Below, piece after piece: positions 1,961-55,870 of a stretch of DNA of 64,000 nucleotides; the stretch's first letter is position 1, and every line of letters begins with the position of its first letter. A program made the translations under genes and the position numbers. This DNA is from Octopus sinensis (Eukaryota), in NCBI RefSeq assembly GCF_006345805.1, contig NC_042998.1, positions 21,886,001-21,950,000 on the forward strand, given 5' to 3'. The notes under the pieces are model-generated. The model saw only the letters and a program-made list of their open reading frames with translations, did no database searches and had not been told where the DNA came from.

Positions 1961-2526
1961 TGGCAAATTTCCTTCAGATCACTTCTCTACAATATTATGA
2001 AGAAACAATTGTAATGGATTATGTAATCTAAGATAGTCGTAAAAAAAAAAATAAATACAGGATGGTCATATCTGGAAATATAGGCCAAGTCAATGAAAGT
2101 TGACCTAGAGTTATACAAGAAGAAGAACAACAACAACAGCTGTAACAATATTTTCAACATTATCATTTATATTGTTTTCAACTCTGGTTTCAGAGTCATA
2201 AGCACTTAACAGAGCTAAATAAAGAAAGAAAGAAAGAAATTGAAACAAGGAATTTAGGCCAAAGTGAAATAGTTTTGGTGAGAGTTTGACATGCAACTCT
2301 CACATTTGCTATCTTTAATAGGGCTTTTGGCATTGCATCATAGCAAAAAAAAGAAAGAAAAAATTAGCTCTGTCCAGTATCTCTTTTGCTGTGGTTTAAA
2401 TTGTAAGGTCAAGTGGTCCTCACTGTAGTTCTGAGAAGTAGTGATTCATCATCGTTGTCTGTTGTTGTTGTTGTTATGTTTGTAAGAGCAGTGGATTGGC
2501 AGAATTGTTAGAGCATTGAGGGTAGT

Positions 2527-3199
2527 GAGGGTGCATAGCTTAGTGATTTGGGTATTCAGCTCACGGTCATACTCTTTTACTTGTTTCAGTCATTTGACTG
2601 CGGCCATGCTGGAGCACTGCCTTTAGTCAAGCAAATCGACCCCAGGACTTATTCTTTGTAAGCCTAGTACTTATTCTATCGGTCGCTTTTGCCAAACCAC
2701 TAAGTTACGGGGATGCAAACACACCAGCATCGGTTGTCAAGCGATGTTGGGGAGACAAACACACACACACATATATATATACACACATATATACGATGGG
2801 CTTCTTTCAGTTTCCATCTACCAAATCCACTCACAAGGCTTTGGCTGGCCCGAGGCTATAGTAGAAGACACTTGCCCAAGGTGTCATGCAGTAGGACTGA
2901 ACCCAGAACCATCTAGTTGGTAAGCAAGCTACTTACCACACAGCCACTCCTGCGTCATAAGGTCATGAGTTTGATTCCAAGTGGCATGTTGCGTCCTTGG
3001 GCAAGAAACTTTATTTCATGTTACTCAAGTCCAGTCGGTTGGCAAATATGAGCTGTACCAGTAATTCAAAGGGCCAGCCTTGTCATATTCTGTGTTACAC
3101 CAAATCTCCTTGAGAACTACGTTAAGGGTACACATATGCTCTGTCACTTAGAATTTAATTACAAGAGCAGGCTGTTCCATTGATTGGATCAATTGGAAC
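2527..3199 (+). mobile_element. tRNA-derived SINE family E (OR-like), split by a family A insertion
   Basis: tRNA-like head gagggtgcatagcttagtg...; continues after 2959 with gagtttgattcc and the tail (gggccagccttgtc...gagaactacgttaaggg...gagcaggctgttcc) also seen at 26932-27232 and 56815-57204. Confidence 0.7.
2572..2953 (-). mobile_element. SINE family A, full length
   Basis: Matches copies at 13730, 34531, 38173, 49730 and 53072; flanked by direct repeat GTCATA (2566-2571 and 2954-2959). Confidence 0.9.
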
Positions 3200-3620
3200 C
3201 ACAGCCGGATTAAGACCCATCAAGGCTCTAAGCACTTAAAAGTTTTGGTGCCACTTAAAAGATTATGTAATTCAAAATTTAAGCAATAACATACCATAAA
3301 ATAAATCTTTACTTTTCAAAACGAAATAAAACAATAAGAGGGAAAATAATGTTTATTTTTGTATGCTTCCACTTTATATTTGAAAAGTTTCCTCCTACTT
3401 TTTTGAATTGCAAATCTTTGATCAGATCCTCAAAATTAATCTTAGGTAACACCTCTGCATCTATACTTAGCAGAGATAAAGGTATCTTGAATATTGTTTT
3501 AGCAAGTTTAAAGTGATTTCTTTTGTGCCGTAAACCATTTACCATTTCTATGGTGCCCCCTCCCCTTCCCTTGATGCCCTAAGCGCGTGCTTATCTTGCT
3601 TAAGGGTTAATCCAGTGCTA
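3200..3620 (-). mobile_element. Non-autonomous hAT-type DNA transposon with transposase C-terminal relic
   Basis: Imperfect TIRs cacagccggattaa / ttaatccagtgcta; minus ORF 3309-3545 contains LSLLSIDAEVLPKINFEDLIKD..FKK, resembling the end of the hAT dimerisation domain; degenerate 8-bp flanks attggaac/atggaaat. Confidence 0.65.
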
Positions 3621-3942
3621 ATGGAAATCTGGCTGCTATTTCTATCAAGTTGCTGTTTTTCTTTAGTCCCAAGTCAACCCTGATTGAGCAGACTAATCAA
3701 GCATCCTGTGACAAGCCCCTCTTACATCAAGGGCTACGTGATTTAACAGAAATTTGACTGTGAACTGATCATGAAATCCTTTCCAGATTTGAGCATTCTG
3801 TTTATTTATCATGTGCAAGAGACCTAGATTCACATTACCTATCATGAACTTGTCTGAAATAGTGGGATGCAATCTGAGGGAGAATTCACTGCTGTATGTA
3901 GCAGTTTGAGTGACTATGCTATGGCCGGGGCTCTCTTGCCTT

Positions 3943-4361
3943 TGTAGGCAACTATAGTTAAATCCATGCCCGACCGTGGGGGGGGTGTCATCTGGAGTTA
4001 TCTCCCTTGGTCACATCGTTAACAATGAGGTGGCGCTCGTGAAAAGGGGATAAAAAGATGACCAGAGAGGGGAGCAGCCTCTTCTTGCTCACCAGGCAGC
4101 TTGCTGCTCACTGCTTTGTCTCCCTCTCTGCTACTAGACTACCCACACCGATTTGAATCGAGTGAAATCCTCTATACCAGTCATGGAAGGGGGCAAGACA
4201 AAAACCCTTTTTGTTCAACTTCATTCTGTTCTCTAAAAATGTTAAATGTTCAAGCTGTGTACGAGTGCTCTCCTCCCGGGTCGGAATAAACGTACCATGT
4301 TCACGAAGGCCTCGAAAACTCACACGAATCGTTGTTGTCTTTCATTGGATTAACTCTTACA
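3943..4361 (+). mobile_element. Possible solo LTR
   Basis: GC-richer block starting TGTA and ending TACA, with TATA-like gataaaaa (~4049) and AATAAA (~4285); no clear TSD or PBS. Confidence 0.35.
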
Positions 4362-4867
4362 TCTATCGAAGGGTTACCGGATATTTGATCAAAATTAGTG
4401 GGCTTTTTCCGAATAAGAGACTATATAATCTAATGTGTCCCGCTTTATACAAAACAATAAGGTGTGATTCGTAGCAGGTCAGAACACTTGGCTGAGATCT
4501 GAGGGAAATTTATTTACTACTTCTTACAGATAAAGTGACACCAGACACATACAGTGTGATTTGAGGGAGAATTAGCTGCTATTTCTAGAAGGTTGAAAGA
4601 CTGGATAGAAGCTCTCTTGTTGACTGTAATTTACAGTACATTTCGTTGAAATGGTATGTTTCTATTTCATGAGTAGATGTAATATGACTACATGATAATA
4701 CATGTGAGATGCCTCATGTAGCTGCTACATTTGGGTCAATGGAGGGAATTTAGGGGAAACTGATTAAAACAGAGATAAATTGCTGGATAGATTTCATTAC
4801 ATGCTCATGGATACATACATGCATACTTACATATATTTGTGTGTGCGTGTATGTGTGTGTATAAAGT

Positions 4868-4898
<31 letters not shown>

Positions 4899-5012
4899 GT
4901 ATACATATATTAATGTATATATATTTCATCTGTATATATTTATGTGTAAAACACACATACTCGCACATCTCTATATATATATGTATGTGTGTATATATAA
5001 TAATACACACAT

Positions 5013-5051
<39 letters not shown>

Positions 5052-5086
5052 GTGTGTGTGTATATATAATATATATATATAATATA

Positions 5087-5117
<31 letters not shown>

Positions 5118-5154: not shown

Positions 5155-5232
5155 ACAGGAGTAAGTACATAAATGTGAAACAAGGTGAAAAAAAAGAGTA
5201 CTCAAGTACCAGAGGCTGAGTATTTTAACAAA

Positions 5233-5270
5233 CTGTCCGACGAACAGGAACGTGAAACTCTGAGTAACAG
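5233..5270 (+). ncRNA. Minimal type-I hammerhead-ribozyme-like motif (U4C variant)
   Basis: ctgt-CCGACGA-short weak stem II-GAA-ACTC T GAGT-A-acag; stem I CTGT/ACAG, near-palindromic stem III, GUA triplet. Confidence 0.5.
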
Positions 5271-5307
5271 CTTTTGATATATTTCTGGTGCTTTTAAATA
5301 AAGTATA

Positions 5308-6853: not shown

Positions 6854-7040
6854 TATATATAACGGGAAAGTTTACGAAAATAAAAGACGAAGGCAGGTGG
6901 AGTACAAACAAACAAATGTATTAGTATGGCGCTCAGGAATAGAAATAGAAAAAGTCTTTTACGTTTCGAGCCTATGCTCTTCGACAGAAAGATACACAGA
7001 AAAAAAAATAAGAAGAGAAACAAGGAGAGAAAAAAAAAAT
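6589..7040 (-). mobile_element. Tandem pair of a short repeat (family F), each with a hammerhead-like motif; Penelope/retrozyme-like
   Basis: Two colinear copies (6589-6803, 6860-7040) in (TA)n/(TACA)n; third partial copy at 48553-48710; motifs at 6720-6757 and 6955-6992. Confidence 0.65.
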
Positions 7041-7408
7041 ATATATAGGTATGTTGGTGCAAAAAGGAAAAAAAAGAACTCTAAATATGAGTATATGTAT
7101 ATTTTTAATAATATTTAGCAAAAGTAAGAAAGTGGTTCAAGAACCGATTTTTTTCATGTGTTGGCACAAGTGCCAGTGCATGAAACTCTCAGTTCTTGAG
7201 TCACTCTGTTGCTATCTGTCTGTCTGTCTGTCTTTCTGGCTGTCTGTCTATTTATTTATTTTATTTATTTATTTATTTATTTACATGTATGCAAACATAC
7301 ACGTATAACCCTTACAACAAGTGTTTCCAAAGGAATCTCATATTGTAAGGTTTCAAAATTCCAACTGTGAGGAAATAACAGACTCAAATAACTACATATG
7401 TATGAGAA

Positions 7409-16163: not shown

Positions 16164-16296
16164 AGATGGAAGATACAAGAATGTTCATTAATCACTGCAG
16201 TTGTTAAGCCATCTAAGTGTCCCACCTATGAGGGATCGATACTTGATGAGTCGAAACAATTGTAGTGGTTAATAAACATTCTTGTATCTTCCATCT
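16164..16296 (+). ncRNA. Hammerhead-like motif (16222-16268) inside a ~42-bp inverted repeat
   Basis: ccac-CT(-)ATGA-stem II-GAA-ACAATTGT-A-gtgg; IR arms 16164-16205 and 16255-16296. Confidence 0.5.
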
Positions 16297-34966: not shown

Positions 34967-35127
34967 TATGTATCAATTATTTTCGCATCCTATCTATATT
35001 CGCATTCTGAAGAGATTTTCTTAAACCAGTAAATCGAAACGATCGTAAATGCTACCCTCATCTCTGGTTCTTCCTTCTTTGTTACCTATTTAATTAAAGA
35101 CATACTAGCGTAAACCACGAGTTTCCT

Positions 35128-44044: not shown

Positions 44045-45396
44045 TATATATAAAATTGAGGTTGTGTGTGTGTAAACCCGCAGAACTTATGAAGTTCGCA
44101 ACTGATTTTCTCCAAATTGGGTACATACATTACTTATGTTCTAGAGATGGTTTTAGACTCTTAAAATTTTTCACATGGTGGGTAATGGAACCCCTGGGGG
44201 TGGGGTGGAAAACCCCCTTTCTTGGGGTATGTACAACTGCCTGCATGGTCCACGCACTGCTTCTGGTCAAACTGAAGAAGCAGCTACTGAAATGATATAA
44301 GTCGGTTGTATTAAATGGCTGAACAGATGAAGACTTCAAACTGAATTGTCTGAGTGCTAGCAATAATAGCCTGTTCCTGTAGTACCAGAGGAAGCATTTT
44401 AAGGGAATAAAGACCGTTTGGAATGCACTATGTTTATTATGAAAAATATGCTAAAGGCCTTGGTAGCGCAGTAGGCAGCACGCCAGTCTCATAATCAAGC
44501 ATAAAGTTAGAGGAATCTGAAGGTCGTGGGTTCGATCCTCACCTGGGGCACGTAACTTTTGTCCAACCCATGCTAGCATGGAAAACGGACGATAAACGAT
44601 GATGATGATGATGATGATCTTAAATCCTGAGCAACTATTCAGCTATTTTCTTTTAGCTTCAGTGTCAAATTCTTCCTTCTAAGCATAGAGGAAGCCCATA
44701 CAAATATTCATCGGCTATTGATTACAACCTGGAATATCGCATGTACATTAACCTAATAATTTATTGGTGTCTAAGACCCAACCACGTTAGTTAGAAACCG
44801 TGTTCTTAATGTGACTTTGCATGCCCAGAATCTGCATGTAGAATTGTTTTCATTTGGGAGCTGAGTTGTCTTTGCAATGGTCCCATGCTGTTTACATGAA
44901 AGAGTGCACAGTTGAGCCACGACTATTGATTCCAAACTGAAATATCACATGACTGTGTTGTTTTCAAGCGCTTCCTTGCCAATCCATACCCCTTTACCAT
45001 GTCATTTCTTTCATGTAGGTTTTCTCTCATGTGGTGCTGTTGAGCACGCCCACAGGCTTAATTTATCACACAGATGTAGTTCCTATGTCTGCTGATTGTT
45101 CAGCATGGTAGCGGCAGCAGTGCCGACAGGCGCAAAAGAGAGTATATCAACGGAGAGCATTTTGGAGCCTTCAAAAATCACATACCTGCCACCCACTTTC
45201 CCATGACAAGGTTAGGGCTTGGAAGCTTCCAAACAGACACATGTCATGTCACTTAGTCGAATTAGCCCTTCATTTACTCCACAAATGTTTTGTCATCAAT
45301 GCTGCAGTTCCCTGAATCACATGTTTCAACTTAACTGTACCATATATACAAAATATACCCTTTAAATCCTCGACCAACGCTGGGTATGTCTGCTAG
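44045..45396 (+). mobile_element. Larger Helitron-like element in tandem with the previous one, carrying extra sequence
   Basis: 5' tatataaaattgaggttgtgtg...caactgattttctccaaattgggtacatacat resembles 37550-37665; 3' cctcgaccaacgctgggtatgtctgCTAG|T. Confidence 0.65.
44457..44550 (+). tRNA. Elongator tRNA-Met(CAT) with a 21-nt intron (44494-44514); probably a pseudogene
   Basis: GCCTTGGTAGCGCAGTAGGCAGCACGCCAGTCTCATA-[intron]-ATCTGAAGGTCGTGGGTTCGATCCTCACCTGGGGCA closely follows the animal elongator tRNA-Met sequence; intron at canonical 37/38; TTTT at 44557; mismatches C11-A24 and C27-A43, three G:U pairs in the acceptor stem. Confidence 0.85.
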
Positions 45397-45496
45397 TATA
45401 TATATATGCATGTATCCACTTGAGAAGAGAAGGCAGAATTAAAATTTTCAGATGGTTAACAACCAAGTATAAATATATATATATATATATATATAT

Positions 45497-45531
45497 GTTT
45501 CCGATGAAGAGCTCCGCTCGAAACGTTAAAC
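45497..45531 (+). ncRNA. Minimal hammerhead-like motif (family F relative)
   Basis: gttt-CCGATGA-A-GAGC tcc GCTC-GAAAC-GTT-aaac. Confidence 0.55.
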
Positions 45532-45767
45532 CCTCCTTCTTTCCTGAGCATCCAATAATACTATATTTGTTCCACGTCCTGGCGTTGTTGTGTTTTTTTG
45601 TGCTTTCATGTTTGGATTATCTTTATAAATATATATATTTTTTTAATAGAGCAAACTTACTTAGATTACATAGATTCAAAGAATTAGTGTGGAAAAGGCG
45701 TTACATGTCTGACAGCTGTTTCTGAGTGATCAGAGTACTTCATATGTAACCTTTCTGCTGCACCCTG

Positions 45768-45819
<52 letters not shown>

Positions 45820-45946
45820 ATTCTACTTGAATAATGGAACTGCAAATACAATATTATGTATCTTACTTCTATTTTCATTCTTTTACTTCCCTCTGTATTT
45901 CATATCTTCTCTACAATAATTAATACTCAAACATTTTCTCACACCA

Positions 45947-45992
45947 TCTCTGATGAAGGAATATATAAAATATCTCAGAAACAGCTGTAAGA
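45947..45992 (+). ncRNA. Minimal type-I hammerhead-like motif with canonical core
   Basis: tct-CTGATGA-imperfect stem II-GAA-ACAGCTGT-A-aga; palindromic stem III, GUA triplet. Confidence 0.6.
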
Positions 45993-46520
45993 CCTTTTCT
46001 TTATAACTGTTTCAAAAAACTATTTACAGCCTTGGATTTTTTATCTCATTCTGTCAATTTATATATATATATATATATATATGCACGCATGGATTTGTGT
46101 CTCTGTTTGTCCCCCACCATTGCTTGAAACCAATGTTGGCTTGTTTACGTCTCCATAACAAAGCGGTCCAGCAAAATGGGAGCGATAGAATAAATACTAA
46201 GCGTACAAAGAATAAGTCCTGGAGTCACTTTGTTTGACTAAAGGCAGTGCTCCAACATGGGCACACTGAAACTAGTAAAAGAGTAAAATTATATTTTTAT
46301 ATTTAATTTTTTTAAAATTCAGACAGTAATGTGTAATATGAAAGAGATCTGGCTGCTATTTCTAGCTAGTTGAACAACCACATAGATACTCTTTTATTAG
46401 CTTGCGTAAGAAAAAATCCCATTTATTGATATGCATAGTAAACAATTTAGATTCATATTATTATGGGAAATTAATCTACAAAGACAAGTAAATTTAATCA
46501 TTATGTAACATAGCCTTTAG

Positions 46521-48553: not shown

Positions 48554-48710
48554 ACGGGAAGCTTTATGAAAATAGACAAAAGACGAAGGCAGGTTTACGG
48601 AAATAAACAAAAGACGAAGGCAGGTGGAATACAAACAAACAATTGTATTAGTATGGCGCTCAGGAAATATAAATGAAACAAGTCTTTAACGTTTCGAGCC
48701 TACGCTCATA
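48553..48710 (-). mobile_element. Family F repeat, truncated within the hammerhead-like motif
   Basis: Nearly identical to 6589-6745; breaks at gagcctacgctc. Confidence 0.75.
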
Positions 48711-54800: not shown

Positions 54801-55870
54801 TGTCCTTGAAATTTGATAGCTTCTCAATTTCTTTCTTGTCCAATTCTTTGGTCAGAAAGAAACAAAAAGATATCCGTCAGAGCGGCACGATACATTCCTT
54901 TCAGTCTTACATTATGATGATATCAAGACAAGTCCACTTAGGAGCCAGTCACTCCTTCCCTATATTATTAAATATCTCTTCTAAGGGCCAAAAATTTTGG
55001 ACGTCATCATTTCCTGGGAGTTTCCAGTGATTCTGTGTTCTTCCTTTTTTTTCTAATTCCATTTCTCAAGTACTGGCGTCAATGGAATCAACAAGTCTTC
55101 TCCTCTTGAAGCTACTGTCCTTGTGCTTAAACGAAAAACGACTACTACTACTACTACTACTACTAATAATAATAATATGTCTCTTGAGGTCTCTGACTGA
55201 GACTTGGAGTCAACTTGTATAAATACAAAGTAAAAGCCAAACATAATAATAATAATAATAATAAGCAACAACAGTAATCTTTTTTTTATTTTAGCACAAG
55301 GCCAGCAATATTGAGGGGTGGAGAAGTTGATTATATTGACCCCAAATACTTAACTGGTATTTATTTTATTGATTCCTGAAAGGATGAAGGGCAAAGCTGG
55401 CCTCAGCAGAATTTGATCTCAGAACATAAAGTCAGAAGAAATTCCACTTAGCATTTTGACCAATGTGGTAATGATTCTGCAAGCCAATCAACTTACGTAA
55501 TAATAATAATAATAATAATAATAATGCTTTGCCATTCTGCTGAATACCACAGATTTGTTTGTCAGTTGTTTGACCATAACCAGTTGAGCATGTCCCTTAG
55601 TGGCTGACAATATGTGCATCTCTGATCACAAACAGAAGTAGTTGGGGAACATCATAGCCATGTGTTAAGAGGAATTTTTGGAGGTTTGAATAATTCACCT
55701 TTGGAAACATGGGTGTTTTGTTCATCATCCTTAAACAACCCTTATTCAGGGACGTTTCGAGCAGGATGGGCTACTTGACCTGAAGAAAATTCTTACTTGG
55801 CCCCACCTGAAAGGTCATGCACTGTTTATCTTGATATGAGATGACCATGTCGCGCACATATGGTTGTGAT

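What the first reader, a model, noticed from the sequence alone, without database searches (positions are those of the whole stretch)
45497..45992. Cluster of hammerhead-like motifs from different repeat families
Seen: gttt-CCGATGA-A-GAGCtccGCTC-GAAACGTT-aaac (45497); a minus-strand half motif GAAACAGCTGTC (45711-45722); tct-CTGATGA...GAAACAGCTGTA-aga (45947), all beside (TA)n. Across the window stem I differs but pairs (TCTTT/AAAGA, GTTT/AAAC, CTGT/ACAG, CCAC/GTGG, TCT/AGA) and stem III is palindromic (ACGT, ACAGCTGT, ACAATTGT, ACTC-T-GAGT). Inference: a diverse set of ribozyme-bearing, microsatellite-targeting Penelope-like or retrozyme elements; the best candidate here for an undescribed system.
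Basis: partly seen in the sequence, partly recalled or inferred. Interest (0 to 1): 0.75.

Follow-up and report, generated by a model that had tools for sequence, protein, structure and literature searches.

The report
Stacked Penelope retrotransposon ends with hammerheads
This is mostly ordinary: three truncated tail ends of Penelope-like jumping genes lie side by side between TA microsatellites, each from a family carrying the hammerhead RNA motif already known from such elements, which is predicted, not shown here, to cut RNA.

Summary
The motifs are real: 4 strict type I hammerheads in the window against 0.02 per shuffle. The cluster is three different repeats separated by (TA)n: F1 (+), F2 (−) and F3 (+). 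Each traced to a protein-coding Penelope-like element (PLE) elsewhere in the genome. F1 flanks an RT/GIY-YIG ORF of Neptune or Nematis type on both sides. F2 and F3 lie downstream of Hydra-type ORF remnants. Family-specific helix I, palindromic helix III, an extra base after CUGANGA, solo stubs and (TA)n targeting are all published (PMC4209133; PMC8557442, File S2, which includes an octopus Hydra family). So 'Penelope-like' is supported, 'retrozyme' is not needed, and 'undescribed system' is not supported. One residue: the minus-strand half motif is a truncated copy of a family whose hammerhead has a 102–122-nt helix II arm, with three compensatory changes between subfamilies. My two paper searches did not find this form, but this scan noted long-armed Hydra hammerheads before on other DNA. 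Cleavage is untested.

The parts
45468..45496 (.). (TA)n tract at the 5' junction of F1
   Evidence: TRF, 14.5 copies
45494..45623 (+). F1: 5'-truncated 3' end (pLTR) of a Neptune- or Nematis-type PLE
   Evidence: 2061 first-look candidates, best 40 at 95-100%; 19 of 19 other copies extend further 5'; pLTR-ORF-pLTR in L215
45497..45531 (+). F1 minimal type I hammerhead: 4-bp helix I, CCGAUGA core, extra A, 4-bp helix II, ACGU palindrome; predicted cut after 45527
   Evidence: 5,738 exact pattern hits genome-wide, reversed control 0; no monomer helix III possible
45624..45645 (.). short TA/T tract joining the 3' ends of F1 and F2 tail to tail
   Evidence: sequence
45646..45744 (-). F2: 5'-truncated 3' end of an older Hydra-type PLE; keeps GAAACAGCTGTC (45722-45711) but lacks the CUGAUGA box, which lies 102 nt upstream in full copies
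   Evidence: Hydra-type endonuclease remnants upstream in L207/L218, L206/L219, L200/L220
45745..45767 (.). about 23 nt of junction sequence not matching the F2 family; origin unexplained
   Evidence: family match starts at query position 27; HMM match ends at 45744
45768..45817 (.). (TA)25 tract between the 5' ends of F2 and F3
   Evidence: TRF
45818..46059 (+). F3: 5'-truncated 3' end of a Hydra-clade PLE
   Evidence: 2630 first-look candidates, best 40 at 84-100%; ORF upstream on the same strand in L134, L139, L141, L142, L144, L148
45947..45992 (+). F3 type I hammerhead: 3-4-bp helix I, CUGAUGA, 21-nt arm (7-bp helix II in the family, weakened here), ACAGCUGU palindrome; predicted cut after 45989
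46060..46082 (.). (TA)n tract at the 3' end of F3
   Evidence: sequence

Best explanation
The cluster is three 5'-truncated terminal repeats of three different endonuclease-bearing Penelope-like retrotransposon families (two Hydra-type, one Neptune- or Nematis-type), lying between TA tracts into which they were likely inserted one after another, and the hammerhead motifs belong to those repeats and are predicted to cut the element's RNA as dimers. Shown: family identity, TA-adjacent 3' ends, link to RT/GIY-YIG ORFs, motif architecture. Inferred from known PLE biology: the GIY-YIG endonuclease nicks (TA)n, the RT copies the RNA from its 3' end and usually stops early, leaving 100-240-bp stubs flanked by TA, which are targets for the next insertion. 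Inferred: in tandem transcripts two same-family motifs pair through the helix III palindrome and cleave, probably slowly and with protein help. The three window copies are likely inert: F2 lacks half of the core, and F1 and F3 have no same-family partner in the cluster.
For: Motif excess over shuffles. L215 has F1 at oriented 1782-1921, ORF pieces at 2037-5113 and F1 again at 7159-7274; the ORF matches another PLE of this genome at E 4e-58 and, weakly, RVT_1 and GIY-YIG. F3 follows Hydra-type ORFs on the same strand in 6 of 20 fetched loci; two more had F3 matches that I did not tie to an ORF. F2 follows Hydra-type endonuclease remnants in 3 of 25 loci. 3' ends at (TA)n. Another of six tested hammerhead families lies within 300 nt of 6 of 19 F1 and 5 of 14 F3 copies, against 0 and 1 in a control zone 1000-1300 nt away, so stacking is general. 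Literature.
Against: No intact autonomous copy was found: all linked ORFs are frameshifted, interrupted or partial. Pfam matches of the F1- and F3-linked ORFs are below the curated cut-offs or absent. For F2, neighbours from other families were not enriched (1 of 24 against 1 of 24) and the ORF link rests on three degraded loci. Many of the best F1 copies start near one point about 100 nt upstream of the motif and one locus has TA-spaced tandem units, which hints at a non-autonomous short unit. No cleavage data. In Anolis PAc, cleavage was not needed for insertion in vitro.
Confidence: 0.88

Rival explanations
1. Most F1 copies come from a non-autonomous, roughly 205-230-nt retrozyme-like unit that is cut and circularised by its hammerhead and copied by the PLE enzyme, rather than from truncated full-length elements. 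This can be true together with the best explanation.
For: Many of the best-matching copies begin near the same upstream point right after (TA)n, and L006 holds three TA-spaced tandem units. A 2026 preprint argues that animal retrozymes derive from PLE pLTRs (first part read).
Against: At least 310 copies extend past that point, several by more than 1 kb into an endonuclease domain. Only 1 of 20 loci has adjacent tandem units. The window copy itself is shorter and starts at the motif.
Confidence: 0.25
2. The hammerheads are no longer active and persist only as inherited sequence in the element ends.
For: Most listed F1 matches have C at core position 4. Published minimal motifs cleave weakly. 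The predicted lowest-energy folds of the window copies are not the hammerhead fold. 5' junctions do not peak at the cut site (2 of 43).
Against: The long-gap scan lists 24 helix III / helix I classes with different stems but the same core in 1.19 Mb of loci (a few may be chance), and compensatory changes separate F2 subfamilies. Both imply selection on the source elements.
Confidence: 0.15
3. The cluster is one functional multi-ribozyme unit or a host-selected regulatory element, i.e. an undescribed system.
For: Three motifs within 500 bp; F2 and F3 share the same helix III palindrome.
Against: The parts are unrelated families of different age (best copies 95-98%, 80-88% and 84-92% alike) on both strands. 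F1 and F3 palindromes differ, so they cannot form the dimer. F2 lacks its core. Similar mixed neighbours occur beside about a third of F1 and F3 copies.
Confidence: 0.03

Closest known systems
Minimal type I hammerheads of metazoan PLEs (Cervera and de la Pena 2014, PMC4209133; parts 1-2 of 4 read)
   Same: Short helix I, unpaired base between positions 9 and 10.1, palindromic helix III predicted to need a dimer, many sequence families per genome, mostly solo copies from truncated PLEs, some pairs on opposite strands.
   Different: F1 mostly has C4 in place of U4. F2 has a 102-122-nt helix II arm and a 2-3-bp helix I. F2 and F3 open helix II with an A·A or A·G apposition.
Hydra clade of C-terminal EN+ PLEs (Craig et al. 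2021, PMC8557442; sections 3 and 11, passages, Files S1, S2 and the start of S7 read), e.g. Hydra-1_Obim, Hydra-2_Amil
   Same: (TA)n insertion, hammerhead near the 3' end, DKT, CxCx5C linker, no CCHH, CxxC and CxH in the endonuclease; File S2 motifs show ACTC-n-GAGT and ACAG-nn-CTGT helix III and a mismatch opening helix II.
   Different: F3 elements have 3' UTRs of about 1-1.5 kb and Asn-rich inserts. The F2 and F3 motifs are not the listed Hydra-1_oBim motif. Hydra loop II in File S2 is 3-10 nt; arms here are 21-122 nt.
Neptune and Nematis clades of EN+ PLEs (as summarised in PMC8557442)
   Same: [quoted passage not shown]
   Different: Neptune and Nematis were not told apart (no tree against reference proteins). 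The 3' UTR is about 2 kb and CA-rich.
Metazoan non-LTR retrozymes (PMC7229834, search listing only; bioRxiv 10.64898/2026.07.22.740005, part 1 of 5 read)
   Same: Type I hammerhead in a short repeat; occasional tandem F1 units.
   Different: Here the repeats are ends of coding elements and mostly solo, not tandem arrays.

Membership tests
EN+ PLE | RT followed by C-terminal GIY-YIG in the parent element | tested here: met
   F1: L215, L214, L210. F3: L139 RT plus endonuclease region, L141 GIY-YIG. F2: endonuclease remnant only. Pfam scores below cut-off.
EN+ PLE | Direct pLTRs flanking the ORF | tested here: met
   F1 in L215: 86% identity over 423 nt on both sides of the ORF. Not shown for F2 or F3.
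EN+ PLE | Sense-strand hammerhead in the pLTR near the 3' end | tested here: met
   Same strand as the ORF and about 60-100 nt before the TA-adjacent end in all three families.
Hydra clade | DKT in place of DKG | tested here: met
   DKT in L140, a relative found with the F3-linked protein; L140 itself has no F3 end in the fetched stretch.
Hydra clade | CxCx5C linker; CCHH absent; CxxC and CxH near the C-terminus | tested here: met
   CNCRPGTIC, CKIC and CNH in L142; CICPPGTTC in L141; one Cys between VIY and IYIG. F2 remnant is 41% identical to the same region of L136; its own linker was not readable.
Hydra clade | N-terminal RWK motif | tested here: inconclusive
   No F2- or F3-linked N-terminus read; a more distant ORF in L139 has RIRWI.
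Hydra clade | Insertion in (TA)n | tested here: met
   F3 12 of 14, F2 15 of 24, background 13%.
Hydra, Neptune or Nematis clade | Phylogenetic placement of the RT against reference PLEs | not tested
   Reference proteins were not available to the script; placement rests on motifs.
Neptune/Nematis | Cx2-5CxxC linker and CCHH in the endonuclease | tested here: met
   CSRSLCNTC / CSRSHCNTC, YCIKCNLC and two downstream His in L215 and L214.
Minimal type I hammerhead | CUGANGA, GAAA and NUH in type I order with helices I and II | tested here: met
   F3 and full F2 copies have the standard core; F1 has it with C4 in most listed copies. The window F2 copy lacks the first box.
Minimal type I hammerhead | Palindromic helix III unstable as a monomer | tested here: met
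   F1: 0 bp as monomer, 4-bp duplex -1.7 kcal/mol; F3: 2 bp as monomer, 8-bp duplex -11.1 kcal/mol.
Minimal type I hammerhead | Site-specific self-cleavage | not testable with these tools
   Needs an in vitro assay; the indirect 5'-end test was ambiguous.
Non-LTR retrozyme | Tandem non-coding units, each with a hammerhead | tested here: not met
   Window copies are solo; 1 of 20 F1 loci has adjacent tandem units; coding parents exist.
Non-circularly permuted hammerhead (type SGC, CSG, GCS; PMC10085705, passages read) | Altered order of the three core strands | tested here: not met
   All three families keep the ordinary type I order.

The most novel reading that the evidence does not exclude
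The F2 lineage carries a working hammerhead whose helix II is a branched arm of 102-122 nt, with only 2-3 bp of helix I. It would be the long end of a continuum (12 to 61 nt in other families of this genome) that published descriptors miss. In addition, F1 5' junctions are denser at and just 3' of the predicted cut than inside the ribozyme, which may be a genomic record of cleavage in vivo.
Probability: 0.4. Interest if true: 0.38.

Novelty: new member of a known kind. Interest (0 to 1): 0.2.

Why it matters
As found, it adds three families to a known association and explains the cluster as a TA-tract pile-up, so it should not be pursued as a new system. The one useful lead is the long-armed F2 hammerhead. 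If it cleaves, hammerhead counts in animal genomes are underestimated, some PLEs scored as having only a 'half core' may carry full ribozymes, and there is a natural series of arm lengths for testing what the ribozyme does for PLEs, which is still an open question.

Tried and rejected
Rfam scan: no hammerhead among the 150 of 403 matches shown, which were mostly microsatellite hits to miRNA models. Repeat finder: swamped by microsatellites. No PLE ORF remnant inside the window by tblastn with 16 PLE peptides. ARAGORN: 0 tRNA genes. F2 and F3 as two arms of one inverted insertion: rejected, only 20 nt alike. The window's minus-strand CTGATCA as a catalytic core: rejected, it aligns to the 3' strand of helix II. 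Scrambled hammerhead for F2: rejected. RNAalifold on F2 copies gave almost no consensus structure; single-copy folds were no better than dinucleotide shuffles (z +0.3 and +0.7); subfamily-majority arms scored z -1.4 to -2.7 against the weaker mononucleotide shuffle. Cleavage footprint: 11 of 19 distinct loci among the first 100 of 124 rows had 5' junctions in the 5 of 31 positions at or just after the cut (binomial 4e-5; counted by eye). The control showed junctions spread over the 25 nt downstream, 2 of 43 loci at the cut and 0 in the 5 nt upstream (first 100 of 276 rows, mixed subfamilies, counted by eye). So there is a step, not a peak, and TA microhomology at TTAAA could contribute. Sequencing runs: no RNA holder listed; the contigs laid say nothing on expression. 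Lunse et al. 2016 on hammerhead variants was not held, so whether C4 or long arms are described there is open. The Pfam family I first asked for is not in the library.

Full report
Observation. The three motifs are at the given coordinates. A strict type I scan finds 4 motifs in the window against 0.02 per local dinucleotide shuffle, with 0 of 200 shuffles reaching 4; the relaxed scan finds 5 against 0.53. The window lies in a 2.72-Gb, microsatellite-rich genome (G000:C2:21886001-21950000). It is likely an octopus; that is my guess plus a word in earlier notes and was not tested.

Anatomy. The cluster reads (TA)14 – F1 (+, 45494-45623) – short TA/T tract – F2 (−, 45744-45646) – about 23 unassigned nt – (TA)25 – F3 (+, 45818-46059) – (TA)n. 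The three stubs share no significant similarity except 20 nt around the helix III palindrome of F2 and F3. Each is a dispersed family: 2061, 109 and 2630 first-look candidates, of which 40 were scored each time. The F1 hammerhead pattern has 5,738 exact matches against 0 for the reversed control. Copies share the 3' end and differ at the 5' end. The 3' end is followed by (TA)3 or more in 19 of 19 F1, 15 of 24 F2 and 12 of 14 F3 copies, against 13% of random 40-nt stretches. These are the best-scoring copies, not a random sample.

Link to coding elements, F3. Two copies share more than 1.4 kb upstream, leading into an endonuclease C-terminus. A 61-aa piece from one of them found 7691 candidates. 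Of 20 loci fetched, 6 have the F3 end downstream of that ORF on the same strand (L134, L139, L141, L142, L144, L148); L150 and L153 also match F3 but I did not tie those matches to an ORF. The proteins show YxDD, a CxCx5C linker, one cysteine inside the GIY-YIG, CxxC and CxH, and a relative has DKT. These are the Hydra-clade marks in section 11 of PMC8557442.

Link to coding elements, F1 and F2. For F1, 310 copies carry a 5' extension. Among 30 fetched, L161 and L162 have a GIY-YIG more than 1.1 kb upstream and L164 and L171 have an RT downstream. L215 has the full layout: F1, two ORF pieces of 340 and 518 aa in different frames, about 2 kb of CA-rich UTR, and F1 again, the repeats being 86% identical over 423 nt. 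The ORF has a Cx2-5CxxC linker and CCHH-type endonuclease, matches a PLE of this genome at 32% identity (E 4e-58), and hits RVT_1 and GIY-YIG below the curated cut-offs. For F2, 3 of 25 copies have Hydra-type endonuclease remnants about 650-750 nt upstream on the same strand. No intact autonomous copy was found for any of the three.

Why a cluster. Another of six tested hammerhead families lies within 300 nt of 6 of 19 F1 and 5 of 14 F3 copies, against 0 and 1 in a control zone; F2 shows no excess (1 of 24 in both). I infer that each insertion leaves TA on both sides and so creates the next target. A shared function is unlikely: F1 and F3 have different palindromes and F2 is on the other strand without its first box.

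Mechanism. Shown: sequence, family, target and parentage. From published work: PLE endonuclease and RT nick AT-rich DNA and copy the RNA; the Anolis PAc hammerhead cleaves only with protein present and was not needed for insertion in vitro (PMC11167929, parts 1-2 of 4 read). Minimal PLE hammerheads cleave weakly and only as dimers or with an extended helix III (PMC4209133, parts 1-2 of 4 read). Computed here: F1 cannot form helix III alone and F3 forms 2 bp, while the palindromes give intermolecular duplexes of -1.7 and -11.1 kcal/mol. The lowest-energy folds of the window copies are not hammerheads. Inferred: the motifs cut tandem transcripts of the source elements, and the window stubs are inert.

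Comparison with print. PMC4209133 describes the extra base after position 9, the palindromic helix III, many families per genome and solo copies. PMC8557442 reports (TA)n targeting, states that canonical hammerheads are universal in Hydra and other canonical PLEs, and lists Hydra-1_Obim; its File S2 tabulates motifs with varied helix I and palindromic helix III. Figures were not visible to me. Lunse et al. 2016 was not available.

The residue. Full F2 copies have CUGAUGA 102 nt before GAAA. A sister set was found from L156; of 25 loci, one had no helix III match and two were dropped as truncated. The 46 copies fall into three groups of 24, 10 and 12, with majorities 16-30% apart and arms of 102, 116 and 122 nt; all keep both boxes. 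Three pairs change on both sides between groups: helix I pair 2 (C-G in 18 of 24, U-A in 7 of 12), helix II position 5 (G-C in 16 of 24, A-U in 11 of 12) and an inner hairpin pair (U-A in 22 of 24, A-U in 9 of 12 and 9 of 10). Against: these are three events on few lineages, not a statistical test; copies were picked by their helix III; helix II has two mismatches in its first four positions; helix I is 2-3 bp; RNAalifold and shuffle tests were weak or negative. Other families in the fetched loci have arms of 12-61 nt. Craig et al. used a 7-17-nt spacer for core searches and marked 35-50-nt cases as half cores. Two paper searches did not find this form, which is a narrow check. Earlier notes of this scan report long-armed Hydra hammerheads in this and other genomes; I reached F2 before reading them, and they are not independent evidence.

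Cleavage footprint. Among TA-joined 5' ends of F1, 11 of 19 loci fall at or within 4 nt after the predicted cut and 8 in the 26 nt before it. The downstream control shows no peak at the cut (2 of 43). Both counts are by eye from truncated listings. This is a hint only.

Verdict. Real feature, known kind: new families of Hydra- and Neptune/Nematis-type PLEs piled up at TA tracts. Interest 0.2; the long-armed variant would merit about 0.38 if shown to cleave.

Noticed in passing
window 6877-7005 (-) and 48605-48707 (-); L067, L068, L069, L076, L079, L084, L147: An abundant family with helix I TCTTT/AAAGA has CTGTNGA in every copy listed by the motif scans, i.e. U in place of core A6, so the change is probably in the source element.
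   Followed up: no
L066 1674-5377, L070; L071 7618-4542: Young Neptune-type PLEs with an upstream ORF (479 aa) overlapping a 775-781-aa RT-EN ORF in another frame; a frameshifted ORF1 is mentioned in the Fig. 1 legend of PMC8557442. No hammerhead of its own was identified near the 781-aa family with the short-arm scan.
   Followed up: partly
L071 4036 (-), L077 5832 (+): A Neptune-type family with a hammerhead (helix III AGTACT) about 500 nt after the stop codon.
   Followed up: no
L135, L136, L137 downstream of the ORF: A Hydra-type family with open frames of 614-645 aa (919 aa in a chimeric copy) has a hammerhead with a 50-nt arm and an ATGGCCAT palindrome; L147 and L152 are interrupted at the same UTR position by another element.
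   Followed up: partly
window 5155-5303, 34997-35056, 16225-16280, 55745-55790, 1985-2020: Further hammerhead-like ends of other families, some degraded; the 5237 motif has the same helix I and nearly the same helix III as Hydra-2_aMil in File S2 of PMC8557442.
   Followed up: partly
window 44457-44550 (+): A tRNA-like Rfam match (33.7 bits, gathering 29) not called by ARAGORN; possibly a pseudogene or SINE head.
   Followed up: no
window 45745-45767: Junction sequence at the 5' end of F2 includes bases complementary to sequence just after its cut site, possibly a snap-back or template switch during copying.
   Followed up: no
L014 887-1216, L004 1316-1447, L011 2010-2233, L186: Perfect or near-perfect palindromic insertions of 130-330 bp beside PLE ends, including a two-armed F2 copy in L186.
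   Followed up: no
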